A stretch of DNA of 64,000 nt, taken from contig JBHLLT010000006.1 of assembly GCA_048938855.1 (NCBI GenBank), forward strand, positions 1-64,000. The letters are read 5' to 3'. The notes beneath the pieces are model-generated. The model saw only the letters and a program-made list of their open reading frames with translations. It was not told the origin of the DNA and searched no databases. A program made the translations under genes and the position numbers. How positions within the stretch are numbered: the first letter of the stretch is position 1; each line of letters begins with the position of its first letter. Source of the DNA: Promethearchaeota archaeon. Its GTDB lineage: Archaea; Asgardarchaeota; Lokiarchaeia; Sigyniarchaeales; SOKP01. Positions 6,584-46,064 of this stretch are shown piece after piece.

Positions 6584-7378
6584 TTAGTGATCTGATTTAA
6601 GCGGTTTTTTTTCCATTTCACTTTTGATATATTCAATATTCTCTTTAAGTGTGTCTCTTATGGGCTCATCTCCCATTTTAAGGTTATCTAAAACTTGAAT
6701 AGCATCTTCAAATCGTTTTAATGCTTCAGGATATTGAGATCGTTTGTAATAAACTCCTGGAATCTTAGAAAAAGTAAATGAAATGCATTGTATTGCTGTA
6801 ATTAAAACCCAAGATATTATCAGAATTGCTAAGATCCATTCTACTACGGGAAAGCGTGTAATGAAAAATAAAATTAGCATAACTCCTATAAGAAAGCCAA
6901 AATATGCCAGATATTTTTTGAATGCTGGACCTTTATAAATTTTAGATTTTGGACCTTGGTACATTAATATACTATATAATACAATATAGATAGAAGATCC
7001 AATAAAACTTGTTAATGCTACGAATGTATGAAAAGTACCGAAAGCTATTGTAAAGGTTTCATCTGGAATTATTCCAACCAGTGCAATACACACATTAGTA
7101 AAAATTGAAATTCCTGTAGCAAGTCTTCTTATGTTTTCTTCAATATTTACTAACTCTCTCTCTAAATAAATATAAAAGGGAATTAGTAGAGAACCACATA
7201 CTACAAATCCTATACTGAATAAGGTTTTTGCATCACCTTCTCCTAACATACTTACATAACTTTCTAAAGGATTAAATCCCGGAGTAGAAAGAATGGCAAT
7301 AGGTAAAATAACTAATATAAATAAAGCACCAATAAAACCAAATAGAACTTCCATTCTACTTTCTTTTATGACAACCAT
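6584..7378 (-). CDS. DUF998-like multi-pass membrane protein with C-terminal TPR-like helix pair
   Basis: 'FNPLESYVSMLG', 'LVGIIP', 'FHTFVA', 'PVVEW'; tail 'GVYYKRSQYPEALKRFEDAIQV'. Confidence 0.7.
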   Translation of the reverse strand: MVVIKESRMEVLFGFIGALFILVILPIAILSTPGFNPLESYVSMLGEGDAKTLFSIGFVVCGSLLIPFYIYLERELVNIEENIRRLATGISIFTNVCIALVGIIPDETFTIAFGTFHTFVALTSFIGSSIYIVLYSILMYQGPKSKIYKGPAFKKYLAYFGFLIGVMLILFFITRFPVVEWILAILIISWVLITAIQCISFTFSKIPGVYYKRSQYPEALKRFEDAIQVLDNLKMGDEPIRDTLKENIEYIKSEMEKKPLKSDH

Positions 7379-7463
7379 ACCAAATCCTCAAAATAGAAAG
7401 TTATTTATTAAAATCCAATCACTATTTATAAGTAAGAGAAATTTCTATTTAAAGAGTGATTTA

Positions 7464-8006
7464 ATGAGTAAATTCAAAAATAAGATAACAGTTATTGGAG
7501 ATGGTTTTGTTGGAAAAACGTCTTTAATAAAAAAATTTACACAAAAGCACTTTGAAGAAGAATATATTAAGACTATAGGAGCAAATTTTTTCAATTACGT
7601 TGAAGAAAATGACGGTGATCGTTGGAAATTAACTTTCTGGGATATAGCAGGTCAGGATGATTTTCATTTCCTAAATCCTTCTTTCTATAGATCAAGCGAT
7701 GCTTCCATTGTGGTTTTTTCTCTTGAAGAAAATGAATTGGGTCGAGACAGTTTAAAACACGTTTCTGATTGGTATAAAGAAATTAAGAAATTTTGTGGAG
7801 ACATCCCCGTAATTCTTTTTGCAAATAAAGTTGATTTAATCAATGAGAGTAAAACAGATAAAGAAAAAATTCAAAAAATAATGAAAAAGCATAATTTCAT
7901 TGATCTTTACCTTACATCAGCAAAAACTGGGCATAATGTTGAAATTGCATTTAAAACCGTAATTGAAGTATTAAAAAATAAAAAACAACTGAAAGATTCT
8001 CTATAA
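7464..8006 (+). CDS. Rab-like small GTPase
   Basis: GDGFVGKT, TIG, WDIAGQ, NKVD, SAK. True start is probably ATG 7464; the track start 7293 overlaps the opposite gene. Confidence 0.92.
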   Translation: MSKFKNKITVIGDGFVGKTSLIKKFTQKHFEEEYIKTIGANFFNYVEENDGDRWKLTFWDIAGQDDFHFLNPSFYRSSDASIVVFSLEENELGRDSLKHVSDWYKEIKKFCGDIPVILFANKVDLINESKTDKEKIQKIMKKHNFIDLYLTSAKTGHNVEIAFKTVIEVLKNKKQLKDSL

Positions 8007-8028: not shown

Positions 8029-8727
8029 TTGATAAGAATGGATATAAATAACTTAATTAAAATAATCGCCGCAGTATTCACTTTTATATTAGCAGTAATA
8101 GTTGGATTGCGTGTTTATACCTTAAACCCACGAGAATCACTGAATAGATGGTTTACTCTTTTTTTTATATCTACTTCCATAGGATTTCTACTATACACAA
8201 TCTACCATTTAATTTTAAATAATGCTTCTGTTATTATACCTCTTATGATTACTACCCATATTTTTTTCAATTTTATTCCTATATCTTTAGTTATGACAGT
8301 TTTTCTATTGGAAAAATATAAAAAGGGTGCTATGAGCTTTAAGTATCTTGGAACTATGATGATAATATTAATTATTATGAGTTTTGGATATTTTGTTTGG
8401 CCTCCAGAATTGAATTTAACTAGATATGTTTTAGGTATTGTGGATACTGAAACTCCATTGTTTTGGTTTATTTTTGTGAATTTAATTAGAGCGGTTTTGA
8501 TTATATATGTGATTTACAAATATGCTATGATAACAAAAAAAATTGAAGACCGCATTAAAAAGAAAGTACAACTGTTTTTTATAGGAATTATTTTCGTTAT
8601 ATTAGCAGTTATTATCAATTTAATTGGAGGAATTATTGAATTCGTTATAATCGAAGTAATTGCTTTAGTTACGATTGATATAGGATCAATAGTAATACTG
8701 AGAGGATTTTTACTTAAGTCAAATTAG
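8029..8727 (+). CDS. Stand-alone seven-TM membrane protein (resembles histidine-kinase N-terminal 7TM sensor region)
   Basis: Seven hydrophobic segments; 'NPRESLNRWFTLFF' after TM1; no soluble output domain. Confidence 0.7.
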   Translation: MIRMDINNLIKIIAAVFTFILAVIVGLRVYTLNPRESLNRWFTLFFISTSIGFLLYTIYHLILNNASVIIPLMITTHIFFNFIPISLVMTVFLLEKYKKGAMSFKYLGTMMIILIIMSFGYFVWPPELNLTRYVLGIVDTETPLFWFIFVNLIRAVLIIYVIYKYAMITKKIEDRIKKKVQLFFIGIIFVILAVIINLIGGIIEFVIIEVIALVTIDIGSIVILRGFLLKSN

Positions 8728-12254: not shown

Positions 12255-13085
12255 ATGGGAAATCAAACAGTTAAAAAGTCTGAAAAGGATGTTATAGCAT
12301 CTACTCCGCAACCAAATACAATAACTACCTTAAAAACAGATTTTGAAACCCTAGGAGTTAAACCAGGTTCAATAATAATAATGCACAGCTCATTAAGTAA
12401 GATTGGTTGGACAGTTGGTGGACCTGTTGCGGTTATAGAAGCAATACTCCAAATTCTTACCCCAGAAGGTACTTTAATTATGCCTACTTTTTCTGGTGAT
12501 AATTCTGATCCCTCTTATTGGGAGAACCCTCCTGTACCGGAAAGTTGGTGGGAAATAATTCGTAATGAAATGCCTGCCTATCACCCTAAAATCACACCCA
12601 CGAGAGGAATGGGAGTAGTTGTAAATACATTTAGAAATTGGCCTAATGTGATTCGTAGCAATCATCCGATATCCTCATTTGCTGTATGGGGAAAACACGC
12701 AGAGTTTATCACAAATAACCATGAATTACTAGCAGATTTGGGTGAAAACTCTCCATTAGCTCGTATTTATGATCTCGACGGCTTAATATTATTAGTAGGA
12801 GTTACTCATGAAAATAATTCATCTCTACATTTAGGGGAATTTCGAAGTGATTATGCAAATAAAAGAAAAAGATTAACGGGATCAGCAATATATGTAAAAA
12901 ATGAGAGACAATGGATTGAATGGGAAGAATTAAACATAAATAGTGATGATTTTGAACAATTAGGATCAGAATTTGAGTCAAAAATCAACTATGCTCCTGG
13001 TAAAGTAGGATTAGCTGAAGCGAGATTATTATCACAAAAAGAAATGGTTGATTTCGCTGTTGAGTGGTTTAAAAAAAATCGTTAA
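12255..13085 (+). CDS. AAC(3)/YokD family N-acetyltransferase
   Basis: HSSLSKIG, GTLIMPTF, RSNHP, SSLHLGE. Confidence 0.92.
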   Translation: MGNQTVKKSEKDVIASTPQPNTITTLKTDFETLGVKPGSIIIMHSSLSKIGWTVGGPVAVIEAILQILTPEGTLIMPTFSGDNSDPSYWENPPVPESWWEIIRNEMPAYHPKITPTRGMGVVVNTFRNWPNVIRSNHPISSFAVWGKHAEFITNNHELLADLGENSPLARIYDLDGLILLVGVTHENNSSLHLGEFRSDYANKRKRLTGSAIYVKNERQWIEWEELNINSDDFEQLGSEFESKINYAPGKVGLAEARLLSQKEMVDFAVEWFKKNR

Positions 13086-13124: not shown

Positions 13125-13283
13125 ATGCGAAATAATTGTCTTTCAGGTCCAAAATATTGCCCCAGATGTGGGAAAGAATTGGATACATACGATATCTCAT
13201 GTAAATTTTGTGGTACAAGCCTGATTCCATATCAAAATGAAGATAGACAAAGAAAGACTAGTAAAAAGAAGAAAATTACATAA
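13125..13283 (+). CDS. Small zinc-ribbon protein (52 aa) missed by the ORF track
   Basis: MRNNCLSGPKYCPRCGKELDTYDISCKFCGTSLIPYQNEDRQRKTSKKKKIT. Confidence 0.65.
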   Translation: MRNNCLSGPKYCPRCGKELDTYDISCKFCGTSLIPYQNEDRQRKTSKKKKIT

Positions 13284-13290
13284 AAATTTA

Positions 13291-14082
13291 ATGGATATGT
13301 TTGGAAAAGAGGAAATAAGACGCCTACAAGAGAGATTAATGAATGTTTGGCCCGCTGACCATTATTATTTTCTAAATGGGTGGATTTTACGTTTTACTAA
13401 TGGCATAACGGCTCGTGCGAATTCAGTTTTTCCTTTATATTATACCGGAGATTTGGATACTATCGATCAAGATATTGAATATGTTGAAAAAGCCTATAAT
13501 TCCTACAAATTACCCTCGATATTTACAATACCAGAATTTTTTGAACCCGATAATTTAGATATCAAATTATTAGAACATGGATACCAACAATTAGGTTGTA
13601 CAACTCATACGATGATTTGCTCAATATCAGACTTAAAAAATAAAAAAATAAATGAAAAATTTACATACTTTATCAAATCAGAACGATTAAAAGAATGCTC
13701 ACAATTCTTAGCAGAATATTCCCATAGAAACCAAGAGGCTCAAAATGTCCTAGAGGCATTATCAAAAAGAATTATTATTCCCCAAAAACGGTTTATCATT
13801 GCTAAAGATGAAAATAAAGTCATAGGAACCCTTGCAGGTATCCTTGATCCTCATGGTTTTTTATATATAGTTGATGTGTTAGTGCATCCAGATTTTCGCC
13901 GTCAAAAAATAGCAACTTCCATGTTTTTTAGTTTAATTAGTAATCGGGGAATTATGAATGATATTCAAACAGTATGGCTACAAGTTGAAACTGATAATTA
14001 CAAAGCCATGAATTTATATTTGAATCTTGGGTTCAAAAAAGCTTACAGTTATTATTATCTTGAAAAAACTATGAAAATGTAG
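13291..14082 (+). CDS. GNAT family N-acetyltransferase
   Basis: 'GWILRFTNGITARANSV', 'VHPDFRRQKIA', 'LQVETDNYKAMNLYLNLGF'. Start is probably 13291 or 13297 (track 13237). Confidence 0.9.
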   Translation: MDMFGKEEIRRLQERLMNVWPADHYYFLNGWILRFTNGITARANSVFPLYYTGDLDTIDQDIEYVEKAYNSYKLPSIFTIPEFFEPDNLDIKLLEHGYQQLGCTTHTMICSISDLKNKKINEKFTYFIKSERLKECSQFLAEYSHRNQEAQNVLEALSKRIIIPQKRFIIAKDENKVIGTLAGILDPHGFLYIVDVLVHPDFRRQKIATSMFFSLISNRGIMNDIQTVWLQVETDNYKAMNLYLNLGFKKAYSYYYLEKTMKM

Positions 14083-14113: not shown

Positions 14114-15001
14114 TTACGGGTAAGATTGAGTGCCATAAGAATATTTTTCTTCTAAAGCTATTGAACCACTTAAAAAACCAGACTCAATAAGACATAATAA
14201 TTCATTAATTTCTGGATATCTCTTATAAAGATCATCAATAATACTCTCGAAATAAATAAAAAATTTACCGTAAGGAATTTTATAACAAATAAACTCTTTA
14301 TAATTTAAATGAAGGATTAGAAAACGTGCAAATTTAACTCGTAATCTCTCATCTAAAGTATTGATGATGCTATAAATTAAGTTTAAATTATATTTCAAAT
14401 CGATAAAGGTTATTAAATCGATTAAATCATTTATCTTTTTATAATTAGTAGCCGCAGATATCATTAATTCCTTTAAATTATTAACAATTATCTGAGAGAA
14501 TTTTATTTTAATGTTGTCTAAAACTATTCTTAATTCTTCTGTATTTAGATAAGATAAAAATTCATTATAGAGCAAAAATTTTATTACAGTAATGTTTTTA
14601 CTCTCAAATCTTTTTGCTATTTCCTCTTTAAAAATCTTCCTTGCGTTAAGATCTCCTGCTTTTGTAAGTTCTCTTAAGAGTGGAAATGATAAATTACTAT
14701 GAAGTAGTGAACTATTGTAATTATCTTCATGCCATGCTTGAAGATTTGAACAATGAGCCCAAAATATCACTTCTGGAGTAAAATTCTCAAATTTAGCTTC
14801 TATAGATTCAGAAGAGCTACCTAATAATTCTACTGCATCATCTACTGAACTAATTTCGCTACTAATGTCTAAATTCTCAACAGGAATGTTCAATAAGATA
14901 TATTTACATTGTCTAAATAATTTGTTATTAACATAGATATTAGTTTTACTATCTTCAAGTCTCAAGTCGAGGAACTTGTTGATTCTAAATTTTTGCATCA
15001 A
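14114..15001 (-). CDS. Lokiarchaeal expanded-family protein (domain usually fused to LRRs), here without LRRs
   Basis: 'LRLEDSKTNIYV...FRQCKYILLNIP...FWAHCSNLQAW...LLHSNLSFPLL...FKEEIAKRF'. Confidence 0.7.
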   Translation of the reverse strand: MMQKFRINKFLDLRLEDSKTNIYVNNKLFRQCKYILLNIPVENLDISSEISSVDDAVELLGSSSESIEAKFENFTPEVIFWAHCSNLQAWHEDNYNSSLLHSNLSFPLLRELTKAGDLNARKIFKEEIAKRFESKNITVIKFLLYNEFLSYLNTEELRIVLDNIKIKFSQIIVNNLKELMISAATNYKKINDLIDLITFIDLKYNLNLIYSIINTLDERLRVKFARFLILHLNYKEFICYKIPYGKFFIYFESIIDDLYKRYPEINELLCLIESGFLSGSIALEEKYSYGTQSYP

Positions 15002-15292: not shown

Positions 15293-15799
15293 ATGAAAAA
15301 AACTGTAAAACTTGTTGTTTCTGGAGATGGTGGTGTTGGAAAAACCTCCTTTCTCAATCGACTAATTCATGACAAATTCAATAATAACAATGAATTAACC
15401 AAGGGTGTTGAGTTTTTTTCTAAAACACTTGCTATAAACGGACATGATTATAATTTTGTACTTTGGGATTTTGCAGGGCAACATCAATTTCAAGAATTAT
15501 TGAATGATTTTGTCGATGGATCAGTCGCAGCATTTGTTTTATTTGATTTATCACGACTTAGTACACTAGAAGGATTAGAAGATTGGATTGAAAAATTGAC
15601 CCGAAATGATATCTCTGTTTTCATACTAGGCACTAAATGTGACACAATCAATCTTGATGATTGTAAAATTTTTGACGATTATATTTTAAACATTATAAGA
15701 AAATACAACAATATTGTAGGATATTTAAAAATATCCTCAAAAACGGGGCATAATATAAAGAATGCATTTGATTCTTTATTAAAAAAAATACCCAATTAA
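15293..15799 (+). CDS. Rab-like small GTPase
   Basis: GDGGVGKT, WDFAGQ, TKCD, SSK. Confidence 0.9.
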   Translation: MKKTVKLVVSGDGGVGKTSFLNRLIHDKFNNNNELTKGVEFFSKTLAINGHDYNFVLWDFAGQHQFQELLNDFVDGSVAAFVLFDLSRLSTLEGLEDWIEKLTRNDISVFILGTKCDTINLDDCKIFDDYILNIIRKYNNIVGYLKISSKTGHNIKNAFDSLLKKIPN

Positions 15800-15815: not shown

Positions 15816-16853
15816 TTAGATTTTAACCATCCATCCAAAAGTATCTTCAATTTCTAACCTTTGAATACCGGTCAGTAATTTATACATTTTGGATGTAATT
15901 TCACCAGGTTCTCGATTATTAAATATTCTCGATTTTCCCTCAATATTTACTGATGCAATTGGAGTAATAACTGCTGCTGTACCACTACAAAATACTTCAG
16001 TACATGAATCTTTATATAATTCTTTATAAGATATATCTCTTTCCTCAACCTCTAAATCCAGTATTTTTGATGCAAGAGTCAAGATAGATTCTCTTGTAAT
16101 TCCTTCTAAAATTGTTCCTGTTTTCCTTGGAGTGACAAGTTTACCATCAATCATTCCGAAAAAATTAGCAGCTCCAACCTCTTCGATATACTCAAGCTGT
16201 ACTGCATCTAAATAAAGAATTTGAGCAAAACCTCTTTCTTGTGATTCTTTAGCCGGTAACATAGTCCCAGCATAATTACATATTGTTTTTGCTGAACCAG
16301 TTCCTCCAGGAGCCGCTCTAGTATATTTTTTTGATATTTCCAAATCAATTCCTTTAAATCCTTCAGGAAAATAAGGACCAACAGGGACAACAAAAATAAT
16401 AAATTTAAACTCTAATGCTGAATGTACTCCAAGAATTGGACCATAACCAAATAATAAAGGTCGAATATATAAAGCGCCGTTACTGTTATATGGGGGAATA
16501 TATTCTTCATTTTCTTTTACTACCTTTTTTACAGCATCAATAAATTTATTAGTATCATAGTCAGGCATTAACATCCTTCTGGCACTGAAATTAAATCTTT
16601 TTGCATTTTCCTCTGGTCTAAAGAGAGTTATTTCTCCGTTTTTAGCCCTTAAAGCTTTCATTCCTTCAAAAATACCTTGCCCATAATTTAACACACATGA
16701 TGCTGGCGAAATTTCAATGTTACCAAATGGGATTAATTTACCGTTATCCCACTTCCCTTTTTTATGTGTTGCCATGAACATAGTTTTTGTTTCAATAAAA
16801 TTGAAACCTAAAGAATAGAAATCAATATCCTCTGGTGCTACCATATCTTTCAA
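15816..16853 (-). CDS. ilvE: Branched-chain amino acid aminotransferase
   Basis: YGQGIFEGMKA, LFRPEEN, YIRP, KTICNY, EEVGAAN, ILEGITR, GTAA. Confidence 0.95.
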   Translation of the reverse strand: MKDMVAPEDIDFYSLGFNFIETKTMFMATHKKGKWDNGKLIPFGNIEISPASCVLNYGQGIFEGMKALRAKNGEITLFRPEENAKRFNFSARRMLMPDYDTNKFIDAVKKVVKENEEYIPPYNSNGALYIRPLLFGYGPILGVHSALEFKFIIFVVPVGPYFPEGFKGIDLEISKKYTRAAPGGTGSAKTICNYAGTMLPAKESQERGFAQILYLDAVQLEYIEEVGAANFFGMIDGKLVTPRKTGTILEGITRESILTLASKILDLEVEERDISYKELYKDSCTEVFCSGTAAVITPIASVNIEGKSRIFNNREPGEITSKMYKLLTGIQRLEIEDTFGWMVKI

Positions 16854-18168: not shown

Positions 18169-19776
18169 ATGGCCGAAGAATATGATTATCTTTTTAAGTC
18201 AATCGTTGTAGGAGATGGTGGTGTAGGGAAAACAGCGTTAACCCTCAGATTTAGTAAAGGTTTTTTTACAGAAGATTACAAGATGACAATTGGTGTAGAT
18301 TTTCATGTAAAAACAATATCTATTGACTCTGTTGAAGGACCAATACGTGCAAAACTCCAAATCTGGGACACTGGTGGTCAAGAGCGTTTTAGTTCAATTA
18401 GACCTATGTATTATAGAGGATCTTTAGGTGCATTACTAATCTTTGATCTTACAAATTCTGCTAGTTTTGTGCACTTACCACAATGGATTGAAGAAGTTAG
18501 AGCAAATGTAAAAATTGAAATTCCTTTATTACTTGTTGGGAATAAAAGTGATTTAGTTGATCAAAGAGCCGTTTCTCTAGAAGAAATCAACACTTTCACA
18601 AGTGATTTTAATCTATACTATATGGAAACCTCAGCGAAGACAGGGGAGGGAGTAGGTGATTGTTTTTACATTTTAGCATGTCTAATGATTGGTTCAGGTG
18701 TCCCTGATCAATTGATCTCAAGGGGAATCGTATTCAACCCTGGTCAAGTTCCAACCACTGCTATAGGAGCTAGTCCAACTCCAATGCAACAATTGGAGCC
18801 TGAATTTGATTTTGCAGCACCTCCTGTTCCAGAACCGGAAACAACCCAAACAAATGAGTCTATCCCATCATTTGAACCAGAACCGGAATATGAATTTGAA
18901 GCACCACCAGTACCTGAGCCAGTATTCGAGCCTGAATTCGAACCTGAAATTCCCTTACCTGAGTCTCAATCCATTGAACCCCCAAGTCAAGTGGTTGAAT
19001 TTGAATTTAAAACTCCCGATGAAATATTATCAACACTAGATTCAGAAGAATCACAAATATCAACTACACCGCCCATCAATATTACGAGAGGAGAAGATTC
19101 ATACAAACCAAAGGCAATCCCTTTTTCGGATAATGTTCCAGTTCCGGCTCCTGCACCGGAAGGATTCCAACCTCAATCAGCATCAGCTCCTATTGAGAAT
19201 TCTTCTTCAAACATTAATACGTTCTTTCCAACTCAACAAGCAAATAAAACTAAATCGGATTCCTTAATGGATTATTTACCTGAACCTATGTATTCAAAAA
19301 AAGATAAGAAGAAAGCAGAAAAACAGAAAAAGAAAGACGAGAAAGAGAAGAAACTCAGAGAAGAACAAGAAAAACAAGAAAGAATGTTAGAAGAAATGAA
19401 GAGAACCAAGAAAGAAAAGAAGCAAAAAACAAAGAAAGAAAAGAAAACGAAACCTGAGAAGATACAGGAAAAACCTACTCCAACACCAGAAACAGCTACA
19501 GCTCCATCGCTCTTTCAAACATTATCTCAAAAATCTGAACCTGAAAAGACCTCAGTGGCAACATTTATGCCGTTTATAGCAAAAGAAGAACCAGTAGCTC
19601 AAGAAACCAGCAAATTACGGATTATTCCAAATGTTTCAAACATCGAAAGTACACCTCAATCTGTTCAAGCAAAACAAGCGAAACCAGCTGGAAAAGAAAT
19701 CCTTATTTGTAAACAGTGCGGTGCTATATTGTCAAGTGATTATCAATTCTGCAATAAATGTGGATCACAACTTTAA
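18169..19776 (+). CDS. Rab-like GTPase with long Pro/Glu-rich disordered tail, Lys/Glu-rich helix and C-terminal zinc ribbon
   Basis: YDYLFK, GDGGVGKT, TIGVDF, KLQIWDTGGQERF, YYRG, NKSD, SAK; C-terminus CKQC...CNKC. Confidence 0.9.
   Translation: MAEEYDYLFKSIVVGDGGVGKTALTLRFSKGFFTEDYKMTIGVDFHVKTISIDSVEGPIRAKLQIWDTGGQERFSSIRPMYYRGSLGALLIFDLTNSASFVHLPQWIEEVRANVKIEIPLLLVGNKSDLVDQRAVSLEEINTFTSDFNLYYMETSAKTGEGVGDCFYILACLMIGSGVPDQLISRGIVFNPGQVPTTAIGASPTPMQQLEPEFDFAAPPVPEPETTQTNESIPSFEPEPEYEFEAPPVPEPVFEPEFEPEIPLPESQSIEPPSQVVEFEFKTPDEILSTLDSEESQISTTPPINITRGEDSYKPKAIPFSDNVPVPAPAPEGFQPQSASAPIENSSSNINTFFPTQQANKTKSDSLMDYLPEPMYSKKDKKKAEKQKKKDEKEKKLREEQEKQERMLEEMKRTKKEKKQKTKKEKKTKPEKIQEKPTPTPETATAPSLFQTLSQKSEPEKTSVATFMPFIAKEEPVAQETSKLRIIPNVSNIESTPQSVQAKQAKPAGKEILICKQCGAILSSDYQFCNKCGSQL
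18796..18921 (+). repeat. Intragenic imperfect repeat EPE[FY][DE]FxAPPVPEP (2 copies)
   Basis: EPEFDFAAPPVPEP at 18796 and EPEYEFEAPPVPEP at 18880. Confidence 0.7.
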
Positions 19777-19850: not shown

Positions 19851-20624
19851 TCAGAGTGATTTACCACAAATTGGGCAGATACTCCACATTTTTTTAATTT
19901 TGGAATTACAATGAATACATACTTTTAAATCTGGATCAATTTCGGTTTGGGGTTTTCCAAAAATGGTTAGTTTTTCTGCAATGTATTCTTTAGAAGCACT
20001 GCTTTCCAGTTGCATATTCTCTTCTTGAGGTACATTAGTGGATTGTTTAACCACTTCTCTTTTAACACGAGGTTTTTCTAGTGGAGCCTCTGTAGGAGGT
20101 TTTTGGTACTTCTGAGGCTTTCTAGTAGATTGATCAATACTTTTTTTAATTGCTTCACTTTCTTGAGGTGTAGTTTCAGGTTCAGCTTCTTCAATTGGGA
20201 CACCCACCTTATAAAAAAAGTATTTTCCCTCATTATTTTCTATTATTTTTTCTCCATCCTCCAAATAGACTTCAACATAATAAATAATTACAGATCCAAT
20301 CGGTACTTCTGCAATTTCAGCAATGAAATAATCCATCTTTTGATCCATTTCCATTTGATACCATGAGTTGCCCCGATCGGCACTAAAAATTAGATTAACT
20401 GAAAAAATGGCTTTATTAAAAGTTTCTTCGGTAATTTTTACTACAATTTTAATTGTTTTTTTATGACTATCTTTAGTAACAGGTATTACTTCTGTATTAT
20501 CCCAAGAAGCCCCACATTTAGGGCAATTTGTAAACCAGTTAGGATATTCGTAACTACACTTAGTACATTTCTTTGTATAATATCTTGTTGTTTTTATTCC
20601 AAGTTTCTTTTTTTCTTTACCCAT
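19851..20624 (-). CDS. Protein with zinc ribbons at both ends and a central beta-sandwich-like domain
   Basis: CTKC...CPKC; 'SWYQMEM...AEIAEVPIGSVIIYYVE...ENNEGKYF'; CIHC...CPIC. Confidence 0.75.
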   Translation of the reverse strand: MGKEKKKLGIKTTRYYTKKCTKCSYEYPNWFTNCPKCGASWDNTEVIPVTKDSHKKTIKIVVKITEETFNKAIFSVNLIFSADRGNSWYQMEMDQKMDYFIAEIAEVPIGSVIIYYVEVYLEDGEKIIENNEGKYFFYKVGVPIEEAEPETTPQESEAIKKSIDQSTRKPQKYQKPPTEAPLEKPRVKREVVKQSTNVPQEENMQLESSASKEYIAEKLTIFGKPQTEIDPDLKVCIHCNSKIKKMWSICPICGKSL

Positions 20625-22081: not shown

Positions 22082-22399
22082 TTAAACAAATCTTTGTGAA
22101 TCTCTTGTTGAAAATTTAGTGATCACTTTATTTAATTCGTGATATAAATCAATTTTATAATAATTTGATAAACATATTAAAGCATATAGGATATCTGCTA
22201 ATTCCTCCCCGATTTTTTCTTCATCATTTTGATTCTTTTTAGGTTTAAATCCTTCAATGTGATTTATTTCTTTTGCCAACTCACCAACTTCCTCTATTAT
22301 AGCAGATAACATTGCTAGAGGAGGCCAATACCCCCCATGTGTTGTGATCCAATCATCCACTGCTTTTTGCATATCATGAAGAGAATTCTTATCAAACAT
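22082..22399 (-). CDS. MazG-like nucleotide pyrophosphohydrolase
   Basis: GGYWPPL, EEVGELAKE, EELAD. Confidence 0.9.
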   Translation of the reverse strand: MFDKNSLHDMQKAVDDWITTHGGYWPPLAMLSAIIEEVGELAKEINHIEGFKPKKNQNDEEKIGEELADILYALICLSNYYKIDLYHELNKVITKFSTRDSQRFV

Positions 22400-45050: not shown

Positions 45051-46064
45051 TTATACTTCTTCTGTAAAAACAAAACGTTTAATCATTTGAAGGGCTAGCA
45101 TTTTAAAAGCATCGTTTATATTTTCACCTGTTTTTGCTGAAGTTTCAATATATGAAAGGCTAATTTTTTTAGAAAGTTCTTCTCCTTGTTCTGTGGACAC
45201 GACGCGATTATCTTCAAGGTCTATCTTATTTCCAACTAGTATCATTGATATAGTTGGTGAAATGGTTTTGATCTCTTTAAACCAACTTTCTAGAATGTCT
45301 AAAGTCTCTTTGCGAGTAACATCATATACTAAAATACCTGCTTCAGCATTAGCAAGGTATGTCTGTCTCACTCTTTTAAATTGTGCTTGTCCTGCTAAAT
45401 CCCAGATAACGAAACGAACTTTAGATTCTAGTCCTTTAAATTCACATTCTTTTTTCATTATTGATGTACCTATTGTAGATTTATAATCTGTTTGAAAAGA
45501 GTCTTCCACAAATCGGTGAACCATACTAGTCTTTCCAACTCCACCTTCACCACCCAGGATTAATTTAAAAGCATATTCTCCAGATTCTATTTTAATCTTT
45601 TGAAGAGTATCTACTTTTCTCTGGATATTGTGAGACTCTCTATCAATAGATAACTTAGGAATTACTGGGCTTACTGATCTTCCATCTAAAATTCTAGCAA
45701 TTTTCTCAGCAGCTAAATAAGCATATGGAAAAACAGGATCTACCATAGCAACTGCTTTCAATACAGTGACAAAAACTGCTTCAGGACCAGCTTCACAAAA
45801 TATGAATCGTTGCTCTTCTGTATCAAAAGTTCCCGTTCCAAAAGAACCAGAACTAAACTCTTCTGTGATTCTAGTCAAGACAGGTTCGACTAATGCACTA
45901 ACTCCTCCAATAACATCTTCTTCTACCTCTGCATCTGAAGAACCTTTTAATGCGGTCATTACTAACCCTTCTCTATTTACAATAAGAGTCGCGATTAAGT
46001 TCTCTCCTACTTCTTGCTTATACCATTTAAGTAAGGCTTCAAGTTTTTTTCGATCGACTGACAT
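45051..46064 (-). CDS. Roadblock/LC7 domain-Rab-like GTPase fusion
   Basis: N-terminal 'LIVNREGLV' roadblock; C-terminal GEGGVGKT, TIG, WDLAGQ, NKID, SAK. Confidence 0.9.
   Translation of the reverse strand: MSVDRKKLEALLKWYKQEVGENLIATLIVNREGLVMTALKGSSDAEVEEDVIGGVSALVEPVLTRITEEFSSGSFGTGTFDTEEQRFIFCEAGPEAVFVTVLKAVAMVDPVFPYAYLAAEKIARILDGRSVSPVIPKLSIDRESHNIQRKVDTLQKIKIESGEYAFKLILGGEGGVGKTSMVHRFVEDSFQTDYKSTIGTSIMKKECEFKGLESKVRFVIWDLAGQAQFKRVRQTYLANAEAGILVYDVTRKETLDILESWFKEIKTISPTISMILVGNKIDLEDNRVVSTEQGEELSKKISLSYIETSAKTGENINDAFKMLALQMIKRFVFTEEV

What the first reader, a model, noticed from the sequence alone, without database searches (positions are those of the whole stretch)
18169..19776. Strongly Rab-like GTPase with a ~330-aa disordered tail, repeated acidic-aromatic motifs and a Zn ribbon
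Seen: near-complete RabF-type signatures (YDYLFK, IGVDF, KLQIW, RFSSI, YYRG, LIFDLT). These are followed by repeated EPE[FY][DE]FxAPPVPEP motifs, a K/E-rich helix and a terminal CxxC...CxxC instead of a prenylation CC/CxC. Inference: a eukaryote-style scaffold in which short linear motifs recruit partners and the basic helix or Zn ribbon provides localisation without lipidation.
Basis: partly seen in the sequence, partly recalled or inferred. Interest (0 to 1): 0.7.

Follow-up and report, generated by a model that had tools for sequence, protein, structure and literature searches.

The report
Rab-like GTPase with zinc-ribbon tail
This Lokiarchaeial gene encodes a very strongly conserved Rab-like molecular switch that, instead of a lipid anchor, carries a 350-residue mostly disordered tail with conserved short motifs, a lysine-rich helix and a terminal zinc ribbon, and it almost always lies beside a second zinc-ribbon gene, which gives a testable lead on how such switches were positioned before lipid anchoring existed.

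Summary
ORF 18169..19776 (+) encodes 535 aa. It has a complete Ras-superfamily G domain (Pfam Ras, E 1.6e-51) with all five RabF-like motifs, and its best solved relatives are Rab8A/Rab1 and "Thorarchaeota Rab".

The 350-aa tail holds:
- an acidic proline-rich block with two acidic-aromatic-APPVPEP motifs;
- several further conserved short motifs;
- a 48-residue Lys-rich helix;
- a C4 zinc ribbon (PF13240).

It is single-copy among 68 small-GTPase matches in this genome. Orthologues occur in most genomes of the same order and almost nowhere else in the phylum. The G domain is about 92% identical across the family. Tail motif islands are conserved (0.7-0.9) while linkers drift (0.2-0.4). In sister families only the long tail and the ribbon persist.

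A gene for a beta-sandwich plus disordered linker plus the same ribbon type stays adjacent across the order, although its orientation differs between families.

The orthologue KKK40223 is the published exemplar "archaeal Rab-like GTPase", whose tail the literature overlooked. Phylogeny does not show it to be a true Rab. Localisation and partner recruitment remain inference.

The scan had already noted this family in other genomes. I rate it a new variant of a known kind.

The parts
18169..19776 (+). Whole gene: 535-aa Rab-like small GTPase with a long tail and a C-terminal zinc ribbon
   Evidence: ORF. More than 120 full-length orthologues at 55-92% identity. Single copy in its own genome.
18169..18723 (+). 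G domain (aa 1-185) with the P-loop GDGGVGKT, DTGGQ, GNKSD, ETSAK and the RabF1-5-like motifs
   Evidence: Pfam Ras E 1.6e-51. PDB best hits are Rab8A at 2e-44 and Thorarchaeota Rab 7ezb at 3e-44. 92% mean identity over 47 family orthologues.
18724..19098 (+). Acidic, proline-rich, low-confidence block (aa 186-310; net charge -25, 25 Pro)
   Evidence: Composition. pLDDT mostly below 50.
18796..18837 (+). Motif copy 1, EPEFDFAAPPVPEP
   Evidence: APPVPEP is invariant in alignment A1. Two copies occur in 114 of 121 orthologues.
18880..18921 (+). Motif copy 2, EPEYEFEAPPVPEP, followed by the degenerate EPEFEPEIPLPE (18928-18963)
19000..19029 (+). FEFKTPDEIL motif, predicted as a short helix
   Evidence: Present in 96 of 121 orthologues. 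Helix 283-292 in the model.
19102..19170 (+). YKPKAxPF...PxPAPxPEGFQ motif
   Evidence: YKPK..PF is present in 121 of 121 orthologues and PAPxPxxF in 117 of 121.
19255..19302 (+). SDSLMDYLPEPxYSKK motif leading into the charged helix
   Evidence: Alignments A1 and A3. Present in 93 of 121 orthologues.
19297..19440 (+). Lys/Glu-rich long helix (aa 377-424; the 373-432 region holds 28 K/R and 14 D/E, net +14)
   Evidence: AlphaFold2 helix with pLDDT 88-92. Charge count. Encoded by a purine-rich AAGAA-type tract.
19504..19635 (+). Three further conserved islands: PSLFQTLSQK, FxPF and SKLRIIPNV
   Evidence: Present in 117, 117 and 119 of 121 orthologues respectively. Identity 0.85 at 481-490.
19696..19773 (+). 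C-terminal C4 zinc ribbon (CKQC-x10-CNKC)
   Evidence: PF13240 at 30.8 bits when scored alone. The four Cys are invariant in 52 sequences, including sister families. pLDDT about 82.
19851..20624 (-). Conserved adjacent gene, 257 aa: N-terminal zinc ribbon, FN3/CBM-like beta-sandwich (aa 55-139), disordered linker, and a C-terminal zinc ribbon of the same type
   Evidence: Model; fold searches. Adjacent in all 49 same-genus genomes (G000 included) and 8 sister-family genomes, with a different orientation.
22082..22399 (-). MazG-like pyrophosphohydrolase gene that stays within one or two genes of the pair across the order (loosely linked; may be plain synteny)
   Evidence: Pfam MazG. Present in loci L001-L013.

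Best explanation
The gene encodes the Lokiarchaeales orthologue of the exemplar archaeal "Rab-like" small GTPase (Asgard Ras-like group).

Shown:
- It has a catalytically complete GTP-switch domain.
- The surface of that domain is almost frozen in evolution.
- The G domain is joined by about 325 mostly disordered residues to a C-terminal C4 zinc ribbon.
- The linker is modular. It holds an acidic Pro-rich block with two acidic-aromatic-APPVPEP motifs, at least six further conserved short motifs, and a 48-residue Lys-rich helix.
- A gene for a beta-sandwich protein with its own disordered linker and the same ribbon type stays next to it across the order.

Inferred mechanism:
- The zinc ribbon fixes the protein at a cellular site or in an assembly, taking the role of the prenyl anchor of eukaryotic Rabs. 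The polybasic helix may help.
- The long flexible tail lets the nucleotide-dependent G domain search a radius of tens of nanometres.
- The short motifs act as multivalent docking sites for lineage-specific partners.
- The neighbour, tethered by the same kind of ribbon, is the best candidate for a co-located partner or effector.
For: Identity and switch competence:
- Pfam Ras E 1.6e-51.
- G1-G5 motifs, the catalytic Gln and RabF1-5 are read directly from the sequence.
- The 60 listed (best) PDB matches are Rabs, apart from one Arabidopsis entry labelled 'small GTP-binding protein-like / RABF2b' and one unnamed Drosophila protein.

A single conserved function:
- It is one copy among 68 GTPase matches in the genome.
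- It was found in 118/134, 12/14 and 2/4 genomes of the three families of the order, against 2/239 genomes from other orders.
- G-domain identity of 85-95% exceeds that of NrdD, IlvE and PanB in the same loci.

A functional tail:
- Conserved islands contrast with drifting linkers.
- Motif counts are consistent across 121 orthologues.
- The ribbon cysteines are invariant in 52 sequences across families.
- The ribbon and the helix are confidently folded while the rest is low-confidence.
- Two further related lineages (Helarchaeota-type and WKFCTYCG-type) also end in a zinc ribbon but with different linkers. The ribbon is therefore the constant element.

Partner gene:
- Homologous neighbours are convergent in the window's family and co-directional upstream in the sister family.
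- Genomes lacking one gene mostly lack both.

Precedent: in Haloferax a Ras-superfamily GTPase works with a zinc-ribbon-plus-long-disordered-linker protein, ArcoC (bioRxiv 10.64898/2026.07.23.738820).
Against: - No tool result shows binding, localisation or zinc content.
- The acidic-aromatic/APPVPEP motifs are only family-level. They are not recognisable in MK-D1-like and L. ossiferum-like orthologues, so they cannot be the core of the conserved function.
- Tail-less forms of 185-196 aa nest inside the family in the tree, so the G domain can apparently work without the tail.
- The same ribbon type ends 35 unrelated ORFs in this genome. It is a promiscuous module of unknown role, not a dedicated GTPase anchor.
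- Adjacency among related genomes is partly inherited synteny. In one genus (G131, G132) the two genes are about 4.3 kb apart.
Confidence: 0.5

Rival explanations
1. It is a genuine Rab: a direct relative of the eukaryotic Rab ancestor acting in membrane or vesicle identity, with the zinc ribbon and polybasic helix as a pre-prenylation membrane anchor.
For: - All five RabF-like motifs are present.
- The best PDB matches are Rab8A, Rab1 and Rab30.
- The best eukaryote-like sequences score higher (155 bits) than the best paralogue in its own genome (144 bits).
- The family clusters with 12 prenyl-motif Rabs at SH-aLRT 92.
- The 373-432 region has net charge +14.
Against: - Within that cluster the branching is an open polytomy, and the tree has no Ras, Rho or Ran.
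- Vargova et al. recovered no Asgard sequence specifically sister to Rabs.
- Surkont & Pereira-Leal found the phylogeny inconclusive.
- There are no prenylatable terminal cysteines.
- No internal membranes have been reported in cultured Lokiarchaeia (PMC10933270).
- The helix has no hydrophobic face. It holds 14 acidic residues and only one aromatic residue.
Confidence: 0.12
2. It is part of a spatial-patterning or cell-shape/division module analogous to the haloarchaeal Arco/Dip system. There a Ras-superfamily GTPase carries a zinc-ribbon-plus-disordered-linker passenger that regulates a cytoskeletal target.
For: - ArcoA is a GTPase. ArcoC has an N-terminal zinc ribbon, a disordered linker of about 245 residues and a C-terminal segment. 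Both are encoded in one operon.
- Here the GTPase and its neighbour both have ribbon-plus-long-linker architecture and are co-directional neighbours in the sister family.
- That paper does not list Lokiarchaeia among the Asgard groups with Arco.
- PF09845 is not found in this 97%-complete genome, which leaves room for an analogue.
Against: - Neither the tail nor the neighbour matches PF09845.
- ArcoA is Arf/SR-beta-like with an N-terminal amphipathic helix, not Rab-like.
- No SepF-like gene was seen beside the pair in the loci examined.
- The resemblance is in architecture only.
Confidence: 0.15
3. The ribbon and Lys-rich helix bind nucleic acid or ribosomes, making this a GTPase tied to nucleotide, DNA or RNA transactions rather than to membranes.
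For: - Weak matches of the ribbon include TFIIB, RPB9, NOB1 and A2L-type nucleic-acid-associated ribbons.
- The Lys-rich helix has net charge +14.
- Linkage with MazG-like and, in the family, NrdD genes persists.
Against: - The best ribbon match is the generic PF13240, which has no assigned function.
- Many of the 35 ORFs with this ribbon type in the genome look like membrane proteins by their N-termini.
- The MazG and NrdD linkage may be plain synteny.
- Rab-like G domains have no known nucleic-acid role (established knowledge).
Confidence: 0.13
4. The tail is a tolerated low-complexity spacer without specific function, and its apparent motifs reflect recent common ancestry.
For: - The tail averages 55% identity against 92% for the G domain.
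- Tail-less relatives exist.
- The K/E tract is encoded by a slippage-prone purine repeat, and its length varies between orthologues.
Against: - In the same sequences, motif islands reach 0.7-0.9 identity while flanking linkers fall to 0.17-0.4.
- The motif count is fixed at two in 114 of 121 orthologues.
- A tail of 300-450 aa plus the ribbon is kept in sister families whose G domains have dropped to 55-59% identity.
Confidence: 0.05

Closest known systems
Lokiarchaeum GC14_75 KKK40223, the exemplar 'archaeal Rab-like GTPase' modelled by Surkont & Pereira-Leal 2016 (PMC4915359)
   Same: It is an orthologue. P0106 carries accession KKK40223.1. It is 58% identical over the full length and 92% over 173 tree-alignment columns of the G domain. 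It has the same tail motifs and ribbon.
   Different: Nothing essential differs. The paper modelled only the G domain. It states that archaeal Rab-likes lack an extended C-terminal region, a polybasic region and C-terminal cysteines. That does not hold for this 587-aa exemplar or for the window's protein.
Thorarchaeota Rab (PDB 7EZB/7EZD/7EZE; Tran et al. 2024, PMC10933270)
   Same: It is an Asgard Rab-like G domain matching the query at E 3.1e-44 over residues 6-175. It has RabF motifs and no prenylation site.
   Different: Thor-Rab is a 182-residue G domain only, described as lacking any C-terminal extension. The window's protein adds 350 residues and a zinc ribbon.
Eukaryotic Rab GTPases (Rab8A, Rab1, Ypt1)
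   Same: They share the G1-G5 motifs, the catalytic Gln, the YDYLFK N-terminus and five RabF-type motifs. Rab8A matches at 154 bits.
   Different: Eukaryotic Rabs have a hypervariable tail of about 30-40 residues ending in geranylgeranylated CC/CxC and cycle with REP/GDI (established knowledge). Here the tail is ten times longer, motif-rich, and ends in a zinc ribbon. Specific sisterhood to Rabs is not supported.
Asgard Ras-like (RasL) group of Klinger 2016 / Vargova 2024 (bioRxiv 10.1101/2024.02.28.582541)
   Same: This is the most likely phylogenetic bin. The closest relatives are Asgard proteins of several classes at 53-59% identity, and own-genome paralogues sit in the same cluster.
   Different: Those studies treat G domains. 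In the passages I searched (the terms Rab, zinc, 'C-terminal extension' and 'disordered'), I found no description of this tail, the ribbon or the partner gene.
Arco/Dip system of Haloferax (ArcoA GTPase + ArcoC zinc-ribbon/disordered-linker protein; bioRxiv 10.64898/2026.07.23.738820)
   Same: An archaeal Ras-superfamily GTPase is encoded beside a protein built as zinc ribbon plus long disordered linker plus a second module.
   Different: ArcoA is Arf/SR-beta-like and membrane-bound by an amphipathic helix. ArcoC is PF09845, which matches neither protein here and is not found in this genome. In the window the GTPase itself also carries the ribbon.
Lipid-free or polybasic-targeted eukaryotic small GTPases (Rit, RGK, and the K-Ras4B polybasic region)
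   Same: The analogy is to a basic C-terminal extension that contributes to localisation without prenylation, or in addition to it. This comparison rests on my own knowledge and was not tested.
   Different: Those extensions are short and bind acidic phospholipids directly. Here the basic element is a 48-residue mixed-charge helix inside a 350-residue tail, and lipid binding is untested.

Membership tests
Ras superfamily small GTPase (Pfam PF00071) | G1 P-loop, G3 DxxGQ, G4 NKxD, G5 SAK, and a profile match above the cut-off | tested here: met
   GDGGVGKT at residues 15-22, DTGGQ at 67-71, GNKSD at 124-128 and ETSAK at 153-157. The PF00071 score is 174.5 bits against a cut-off of 21.6.
Rab family (eukaryotic sense) | RabF1-RabF5 family motifs | tested here: met
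   IGVDF matches 5 of 5 positions, KLQIW 5 of 5, RFSSIR 4 of 6 against RFrsiT, YYRGS 4 of 5 and LIFDLT 3 of 6 identical (L, D, T) with the other three substitutions conservative. The consensus motifs are from Pereira-Leal & Seabra 2000 as cited. The orthologue KKK40223 was scored as having all five by Rabifier.
Rab family (eukaryotic sense) | C-terminal prenylatable cysteines (CC, CxC and similar) | tested here: not met
   The protein ends ...CNKCGSQL. The cysteines belong to a CxxC-x10-CxxC ribbon. The residues after the last Cys vary among orthologues and form no conserved CaaX or CC.
Rab family (eukaryotic sense) | Phylogenetic placement specifically with Rabs rather than with Ras, Rho or Ran | tested here: inconclusive
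   My quick tree puts the orthogroup, 12 prenyl-motif Rabs and 13 own paralogues in one cluster (SH-aLRT 92). Its interior is unresolved and it contains no Ras, Rho or Ran. Published trees find no Asgard sister to Rabs or are inconclusive.
Rab family (eukaryotic sense) | Cycle with REP/GDI and Rab geranylgeranyl transferase | not tested
   I did not search for these here. Tran et al. report finding no REP1 or RabGGTase homologues in Asgard databases.
Asgard Ras-like (RasL) group | Clusters with Asgard Ras-like G domains in a superfamily-wide phylogeny | tested here: inconclusive
   The nearest relatives are Asgard proteins of many classes, and the tree groups it with own-genome paralogues. No reference RasL set was available to include.
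Zinc ribbon (Pfam PF13240, Zn_Ribbon_1) | Two CxxC knuckles about 10 residues apart, forming paired beta-hairpins, with a profile match above the cut-off | tested here: met
   C514, C517, C528 and C531 are invariant in 52 sequences. The score is 30.8 bits against a cut-off of 25 when residues 500-535 are scored alone, and 24.7 in the whole protein. Strands 511-513 and 520-522 have pLDDT about 82. Metal binding itself is not testable here.
ArcoC/OapC (Pfam PF09845) | Profile match to PF09845 | tested here: not met
   The family is absent from the hit lists, searched at E up to 5, for the tail, the ribbon and two neighbour homologues. There is no match in the own genome, while the control genomes respond.

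The most novel reading that the evidence does not exclude
Lokiarchaeales position a Rab-like switch without lipids by a two-gene module. The GTPase and a beta-sandwich partner are each tethered through a long disordered linker to the same kind of terminal zinc ribbon, which docks both at a common site. The family-specific acidic-aromatic/proline motifs add multivalent effector recruitment. This would be a pre-prenylation solution to the localisation of Ras-superfamily GTPases in the closest relatives of eukaryotes. The terminal ribbon found on 35 proteins of this genome would then be a general targeting tag.
Probability: 0.2. Interest if true: 0.8.

Novelty: new variant of a known kind. Interest (0 to 1): 0.6.

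Why it matters
Asgard "Rab-like" GTPases are central to arguments about how membrane trafficking and cell polarity arose. A standing objection is that they have no means of localisation. Two papers state that they lack C-terminal extensions, polybasic regions and terminal cysteines.

This family is the most conserved and most Rab-like of the 68 GTPase matches in the genome, and it is the orthologue of the literature's own exemplar. It has all three features in a different form, plus a persistently linked partner gene.

That turns "how are archaeal Rab-likes positioned?" into concrete experiments in the two cultured Lokiarchaeia, both of which appear to carry the gene pair (genomes G135 and G138).

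Tried and rejected
- Complex prediction. Full-length GTPase (alignment A3) with the neighbour (A2) gave no verdict, score 0.00. This is neither support nor evidence against binding.
- Fold of the neighbour. Foldseek against the PDB gave only weak generic CBM21, CBM56 and FN3 sandwiches at E about 1e-3. VIA-align wide gave Z no higher than 8.2 for FN3/CBM-like domains, which lies within the range the tool calls common arrangement. I looked for AP2/GGA ear-like or Mss4-like matches as a way to explain acidic-aromatic motif or Rab binding. None was listed, which does not exclude them.
- ArcoC/OapC homology of the tail or the neighbour: no PF09845 match.
- Extension of the gene pair beyond the order. 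The Helarchaeota-type relative (L014) has an unrelated 352-aa upstream gene. The WKFCTYCG-type locus (L015) shows no such gene downstream, and its upstream side is cut by the contig end.
- Rab-versus-Ras phylogeny. No Ras, Rho or Ran sequences could be obtained. The representative search returned mostly tandem or fused GTPases and few named eukaryotes, so the tree answers only part of the question.
- CAF1A_acidic and other weak Pfam hits on the K/E tract were dismissed as low-complexity matches below their cut-offs.
- CaaX-type reading of the terminal CGSQL was rejected. The spacing is wrong and the end is not conserved.
Full report
**The observation.** The window has about 29% G+C throughout. 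It carries a 535-codon ORF at 18169..19776 on the + strand.
- Pfam gives Ras (PF00071) at E 1.6e-51 over residues 10-170 and a terminal zinc ribbon.
- Scored alone, residues 500-535 reach 30.8 bits against PF13240, above its 25-bit cut-off.
- The G domain has a complete nucleotide-binding set: GDGGVGKT, DTGGQ, GNKSD and ETSAK.
- Against solved structures, the 60 listed (best) matches are Rabs, apart from one Arabidopsis entry labelled 'small GTP-binding protein-like / RABF2b' and one unnamed Drosophila protein. The best are Rab8A at 2.2e-44 and the crystallised "Thorarchaeota Rab" 7EZB at 3.1e-44.

**Anatomy of the tail.** An AlphaFold2 model built on a 52-sequence alignment gives low confidence for most of residues 186-509. 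Four parts are better defined:
- a short helix at 283-292 (FEFKTPDEIL);
- a 48-residue helix at 377-424 with pLDDT about 90;
- a short helix at 449-453 (SLFQTL);
- a folded ribbon at 510-535 with pLDDT about 82.

The charge is segregated. Residues 186-310 carry net -25 with 25 prolines, and residues 373-432 carry net +14 with 28 K/R and 14 D/E. The Lys/Glu tract is encoded by an AAGAA-type purine repeat, and its length varies among orthologues.

**Who has it.**
- The window's genome (3.95 Mb, 97% complete) gives 68 small-GTPase matches to this protein. Only one has this tail, and the next best paralogue is 47% identical over the G domain.
- Among 400 genomes of the phylum, a match at E <= 1e-60 occurs in 118/134 genomes of the window's family. 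In the other families of the order the counts are 12/14, 2/4 and 0/1. It occurs in only 2/239 genomes from other orders. One of those two is a full-length match on a small contig (possibly a misbinned fragment), and the other is a bare 185-aa G domain.
- The order includes two single-contig genomes of 4.36 and 6.04 Mb whose sizes fit the cultured strains MK-D1 and L. ossiferum. Both have an orthologue of about 590-605 aa.
- The protein database holds more than 120 full-length orthologues of 495-615 aa, all from Asgard metagenome bins.

**Conservation.**
- Over 47 family orthologues the G domain is 92% identical to the window's protein and the tail 55%.
- In the same loci the G domain (85-95%) is more conserved than NrdD (78-89%), IlvE (70-77%) or PanB (73-81%). 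Such a frozen surface is what one expects of a hub with many partners; this is inference.
- Within the tail, islands of 0.7-0.9 identity alternate with linkers at 0.17-0.4. This internal control argues against conservation by relatedness alone.
- Exactly two APPVPEP-type motifs occur in 114 of 121 orthologues. YKPK..PF occurs in 121, LRIIP in 119, the ribbon in 118, and SLFQxL and FxPF in 117 each.
- The residues before APPVPEP are consistently E-P-[ED]-[FY]-[DE]-[YF].
- In the sister family, which includes the MK-D1-like and L. ossiferum-like genomes, the G domain falls to 55-59% identity. The tail stays long and disordered-looking and ends in the same CxxCG-x-FCNKCG ribbon, but the acidic-aromatic/APPVPEP motifs are not recognisable.
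- The motifs are therefore a family-level elaboration. The long tail plus ribbon is the order-level constant.

**Wider relatives.** A G-domain search found three kinds of relative:
- Tail-less forms of 185-196 aa at 72-79% identity, which keep the helix-5 extension and the VFxPGQ segment.
- Helarchaeota-type proteins of 295-323 aa at 53-56% identity. They have a helical module and then a different C-terminal zinc ribbon.
- G-domain-only proteins from several other Asgard classes at 55-59% identity.

The exhaustive representative search added a further lineage of 440-612 aa ending in a WKFCTYCG-type ribbon.

I built a quick maximum-likelihood tree of 87 G domains (LG+G4, SH-aLRT only, rooted on one distant paralogue).
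- The window's family is a clade (SH-aLRT 97) with the tail-less forms nested inside.
- The two other ribbon-bearing lineages join it in a group supported at 86.
- This Asgard orthogroup (93), 12 of 15 prenyl-motif sequences (88) and 13 own-genome paralogues (96) fall in one cluster (92) whose interior is unresolved.
- Four of those 15 sequences (the 'euk' group) are confirmed eukaryotic by name.
- The best eukaryote-like sequences score 155 bits against the query, above the best in-genome paralogue at 144 bits.
- The tree contains no Ras, Rho or Ran, so it cannot test Rab-specific kinship.

Published work bears on that question. Surkont & Pereira-Leal found the phylogeny inconclusive. Vargova et al. 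recovered no Asgard sequence specifically sister to Rabs and place such proteins in an Asgard Ras-like group. I therefore call the protein Rab-like by motif and structure, not a member of the Rab family.

**Link to the literature.** The Lokiarchaeum GC14_75 orthologue (P0106, 587 aa) carries accession KKK40223.1. That is the sequence Surkont & Pereira-Leal chose as the archaeal Rab-like protein with all five RabF motifs and modelled in 3D. Their discussion argues against membrane association from "the absence of an extended C-terminal region", the absence of C-terminal cysteines and the lack of a polybasic region. Tran et al. likewise conclude that Asgard Rabs lack the C-terminal extension. 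These generalisations do not hold for this orthogroup. Full-text searches for Asgard + GTPase + zinc-ribbon, and for the accession itself, found no description of the tail.

**The neighbour.** The convergent gene at 19851..20624 (-) encodes 257 aa. In order, it has:
- an N-terminal zinc ribbon;
- a seven-strand beta-sandwich (residues 55-139, pLDDT 80-88);
- a helix;
- a disordered stretch;
- a C-terminal CxxC-x10-CxxC ribbon of the same type as the GTPase's.

Its fold matches only generic FN3/CBM-like sandwiches, and every source that names it calls it hypothetical or gives it a generic zinc-ribbon label (RPABC4/Spt4, Nob1, 'PIN domain').

I compared the coordinates of both genes across the order.
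- In all 49 genomes of the window's genus that have them (G000 included), they are convergent neighbours 40-125 nt apart.
- The same arrangement holds in the other genera of the family that I checked.
- In eight sister-family genomes the homologous gene lies immediately upstream on the same strand. It lacks the N-terminal ribbon there (BLASTP E 1e-11 to 1e-13 between families).
- In one genus the two genes are about 4.3 kb apart.
- Genomes lacking one gene mostly lack the other.

Adjacency that survives an inversion is better evidence of a functional link than synteny alone. These genomes are kin, however, so the counts overstate independence. A MazG-like gene also stays within one or two genes of the pair. 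The Helarchaeota-type and WKFCTYCG-type loci do not show this neighbour.

**How it most likely works.**
- Shown: a competent GTP switch, a long mostly disordered modular tail, a conserved terminal zinc ribbon, and a linked gene with the same ribbon.
- Inferred: the ribbon, perhaps with the Lys-rich helix, fixes the protein at a site or in an assembly. The tail acts as a long flexible tether, and its short motifs act as docking sites. The neighbour is a co-located partner.

The haloarchaeal Arco/Dip system is a precedent for a Ras-superfamily GTPase working with a zinc-ribbon-plus-disordered-linker protein in spatial control of division. It is not homologous to anything here. The same ribbon type ends 35 ORFs of this genome, including another small GTPase. 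The ribbon is therefore a general-purpose module whose partner is unknown.

Rival readings are a true Rab with a membrane anchor, a nucleic-acid-associated GTPase, and a functionless spacer. Each is weighed in its own section of this report.

**Earlier notes of this scan.** The same family was flagged by first readers in at least eight other genomes. One follow-up (e1-4844867) reached the same reading, including the partner gene and the link to the 2016 exemplar. I re-derived both points independently here.

**Verdict.** This is a real, strongly selected gene. Its G domain belongs to a known kind. The tail-plus-ribbon architecture and the linked partner gene appear undescribed in the literature I could search.

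Noticed in passing
G000 genome-wide, e.g. C79:12825-13409 (-): 35 ORFs of at least 80 aa in this genome end in the same [FY]CxxCG...[FY]CxxCG zinc ribbon. One is another small GTPase of 194 aa, and many have hydrophobic N-termini. The ribbon looks like a promiscuous terminal module of unknown role.
   Followed up: partly
P0333, P0350, P0352, P0331 (Helarchaeota-labelled proteins); locus L014:4001-4891: Relatives at 53-56% G-domain identity carry a helical module of about 70 residues (KHKEY...YQEALKLLKEAY...WIEEQT) and then a different C-terminal zinc ribbon (CxYCN...CPKCG). There is no long disordered tail and no beta-sandwich neighbour.
   Followed up: partly
P0420, P0434-P0436, P0442; locus L015:333-2171: A further lineage of 440-612-aa Rab-like GTPases ends in a W[KR]FCT[YF]CG ribbon. 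One of them is labelled Lokiarchaeota.
   Followed up: partly
P0257, P0265, P0268 and second matches in genus g12 genomes: Tail-less paralogues of 185-196 aa (72-79% identical) end exactly after the conserved VFxPGQITL segment. They nest inside the family in the tree, which suggests duplication with tail loss.
   Followed up: partly
window 15293..15799 (+), 7293..8006 (+), about 45078..45587 (-): Three more small-GTPase genes lie in the window. The 168-aa one, together with the adjacent class-IV aminotransferase gene (15816..16853, -), recurs upstream of the long-tailed GTPase in several related loci.
   Followed up: partly
window 12255..13085 (+): An ORF gives a strong match to aminoglycoside 3-N-acetyltransferase (PF02522, E 9e-86). 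A GNAT acetyltransferase gene follows at 13237..14082.
   Followed up: no
window 14114..15001 (-) and 8029..8727 (+): ORFs of 295 aa and 232 aa have no Pfam match at the thresholds used.
   Followed up: no
window 22082..22399 (-); L006-L013: A MazG-like pyrophosphohydrolase gene stays within one or two genes of the GTPase/ribbon pair in every locus of the order I examined, even where the pair's orientation differs.
   Followed up: partly
P0366-P0368, P0376, P0379, P0382, P0390: Many top hits of the exhaustive search are proteins with two to six tandem Rab-like G domains, up to 2322 aa. Their origin was not determined.
   Followed up: no
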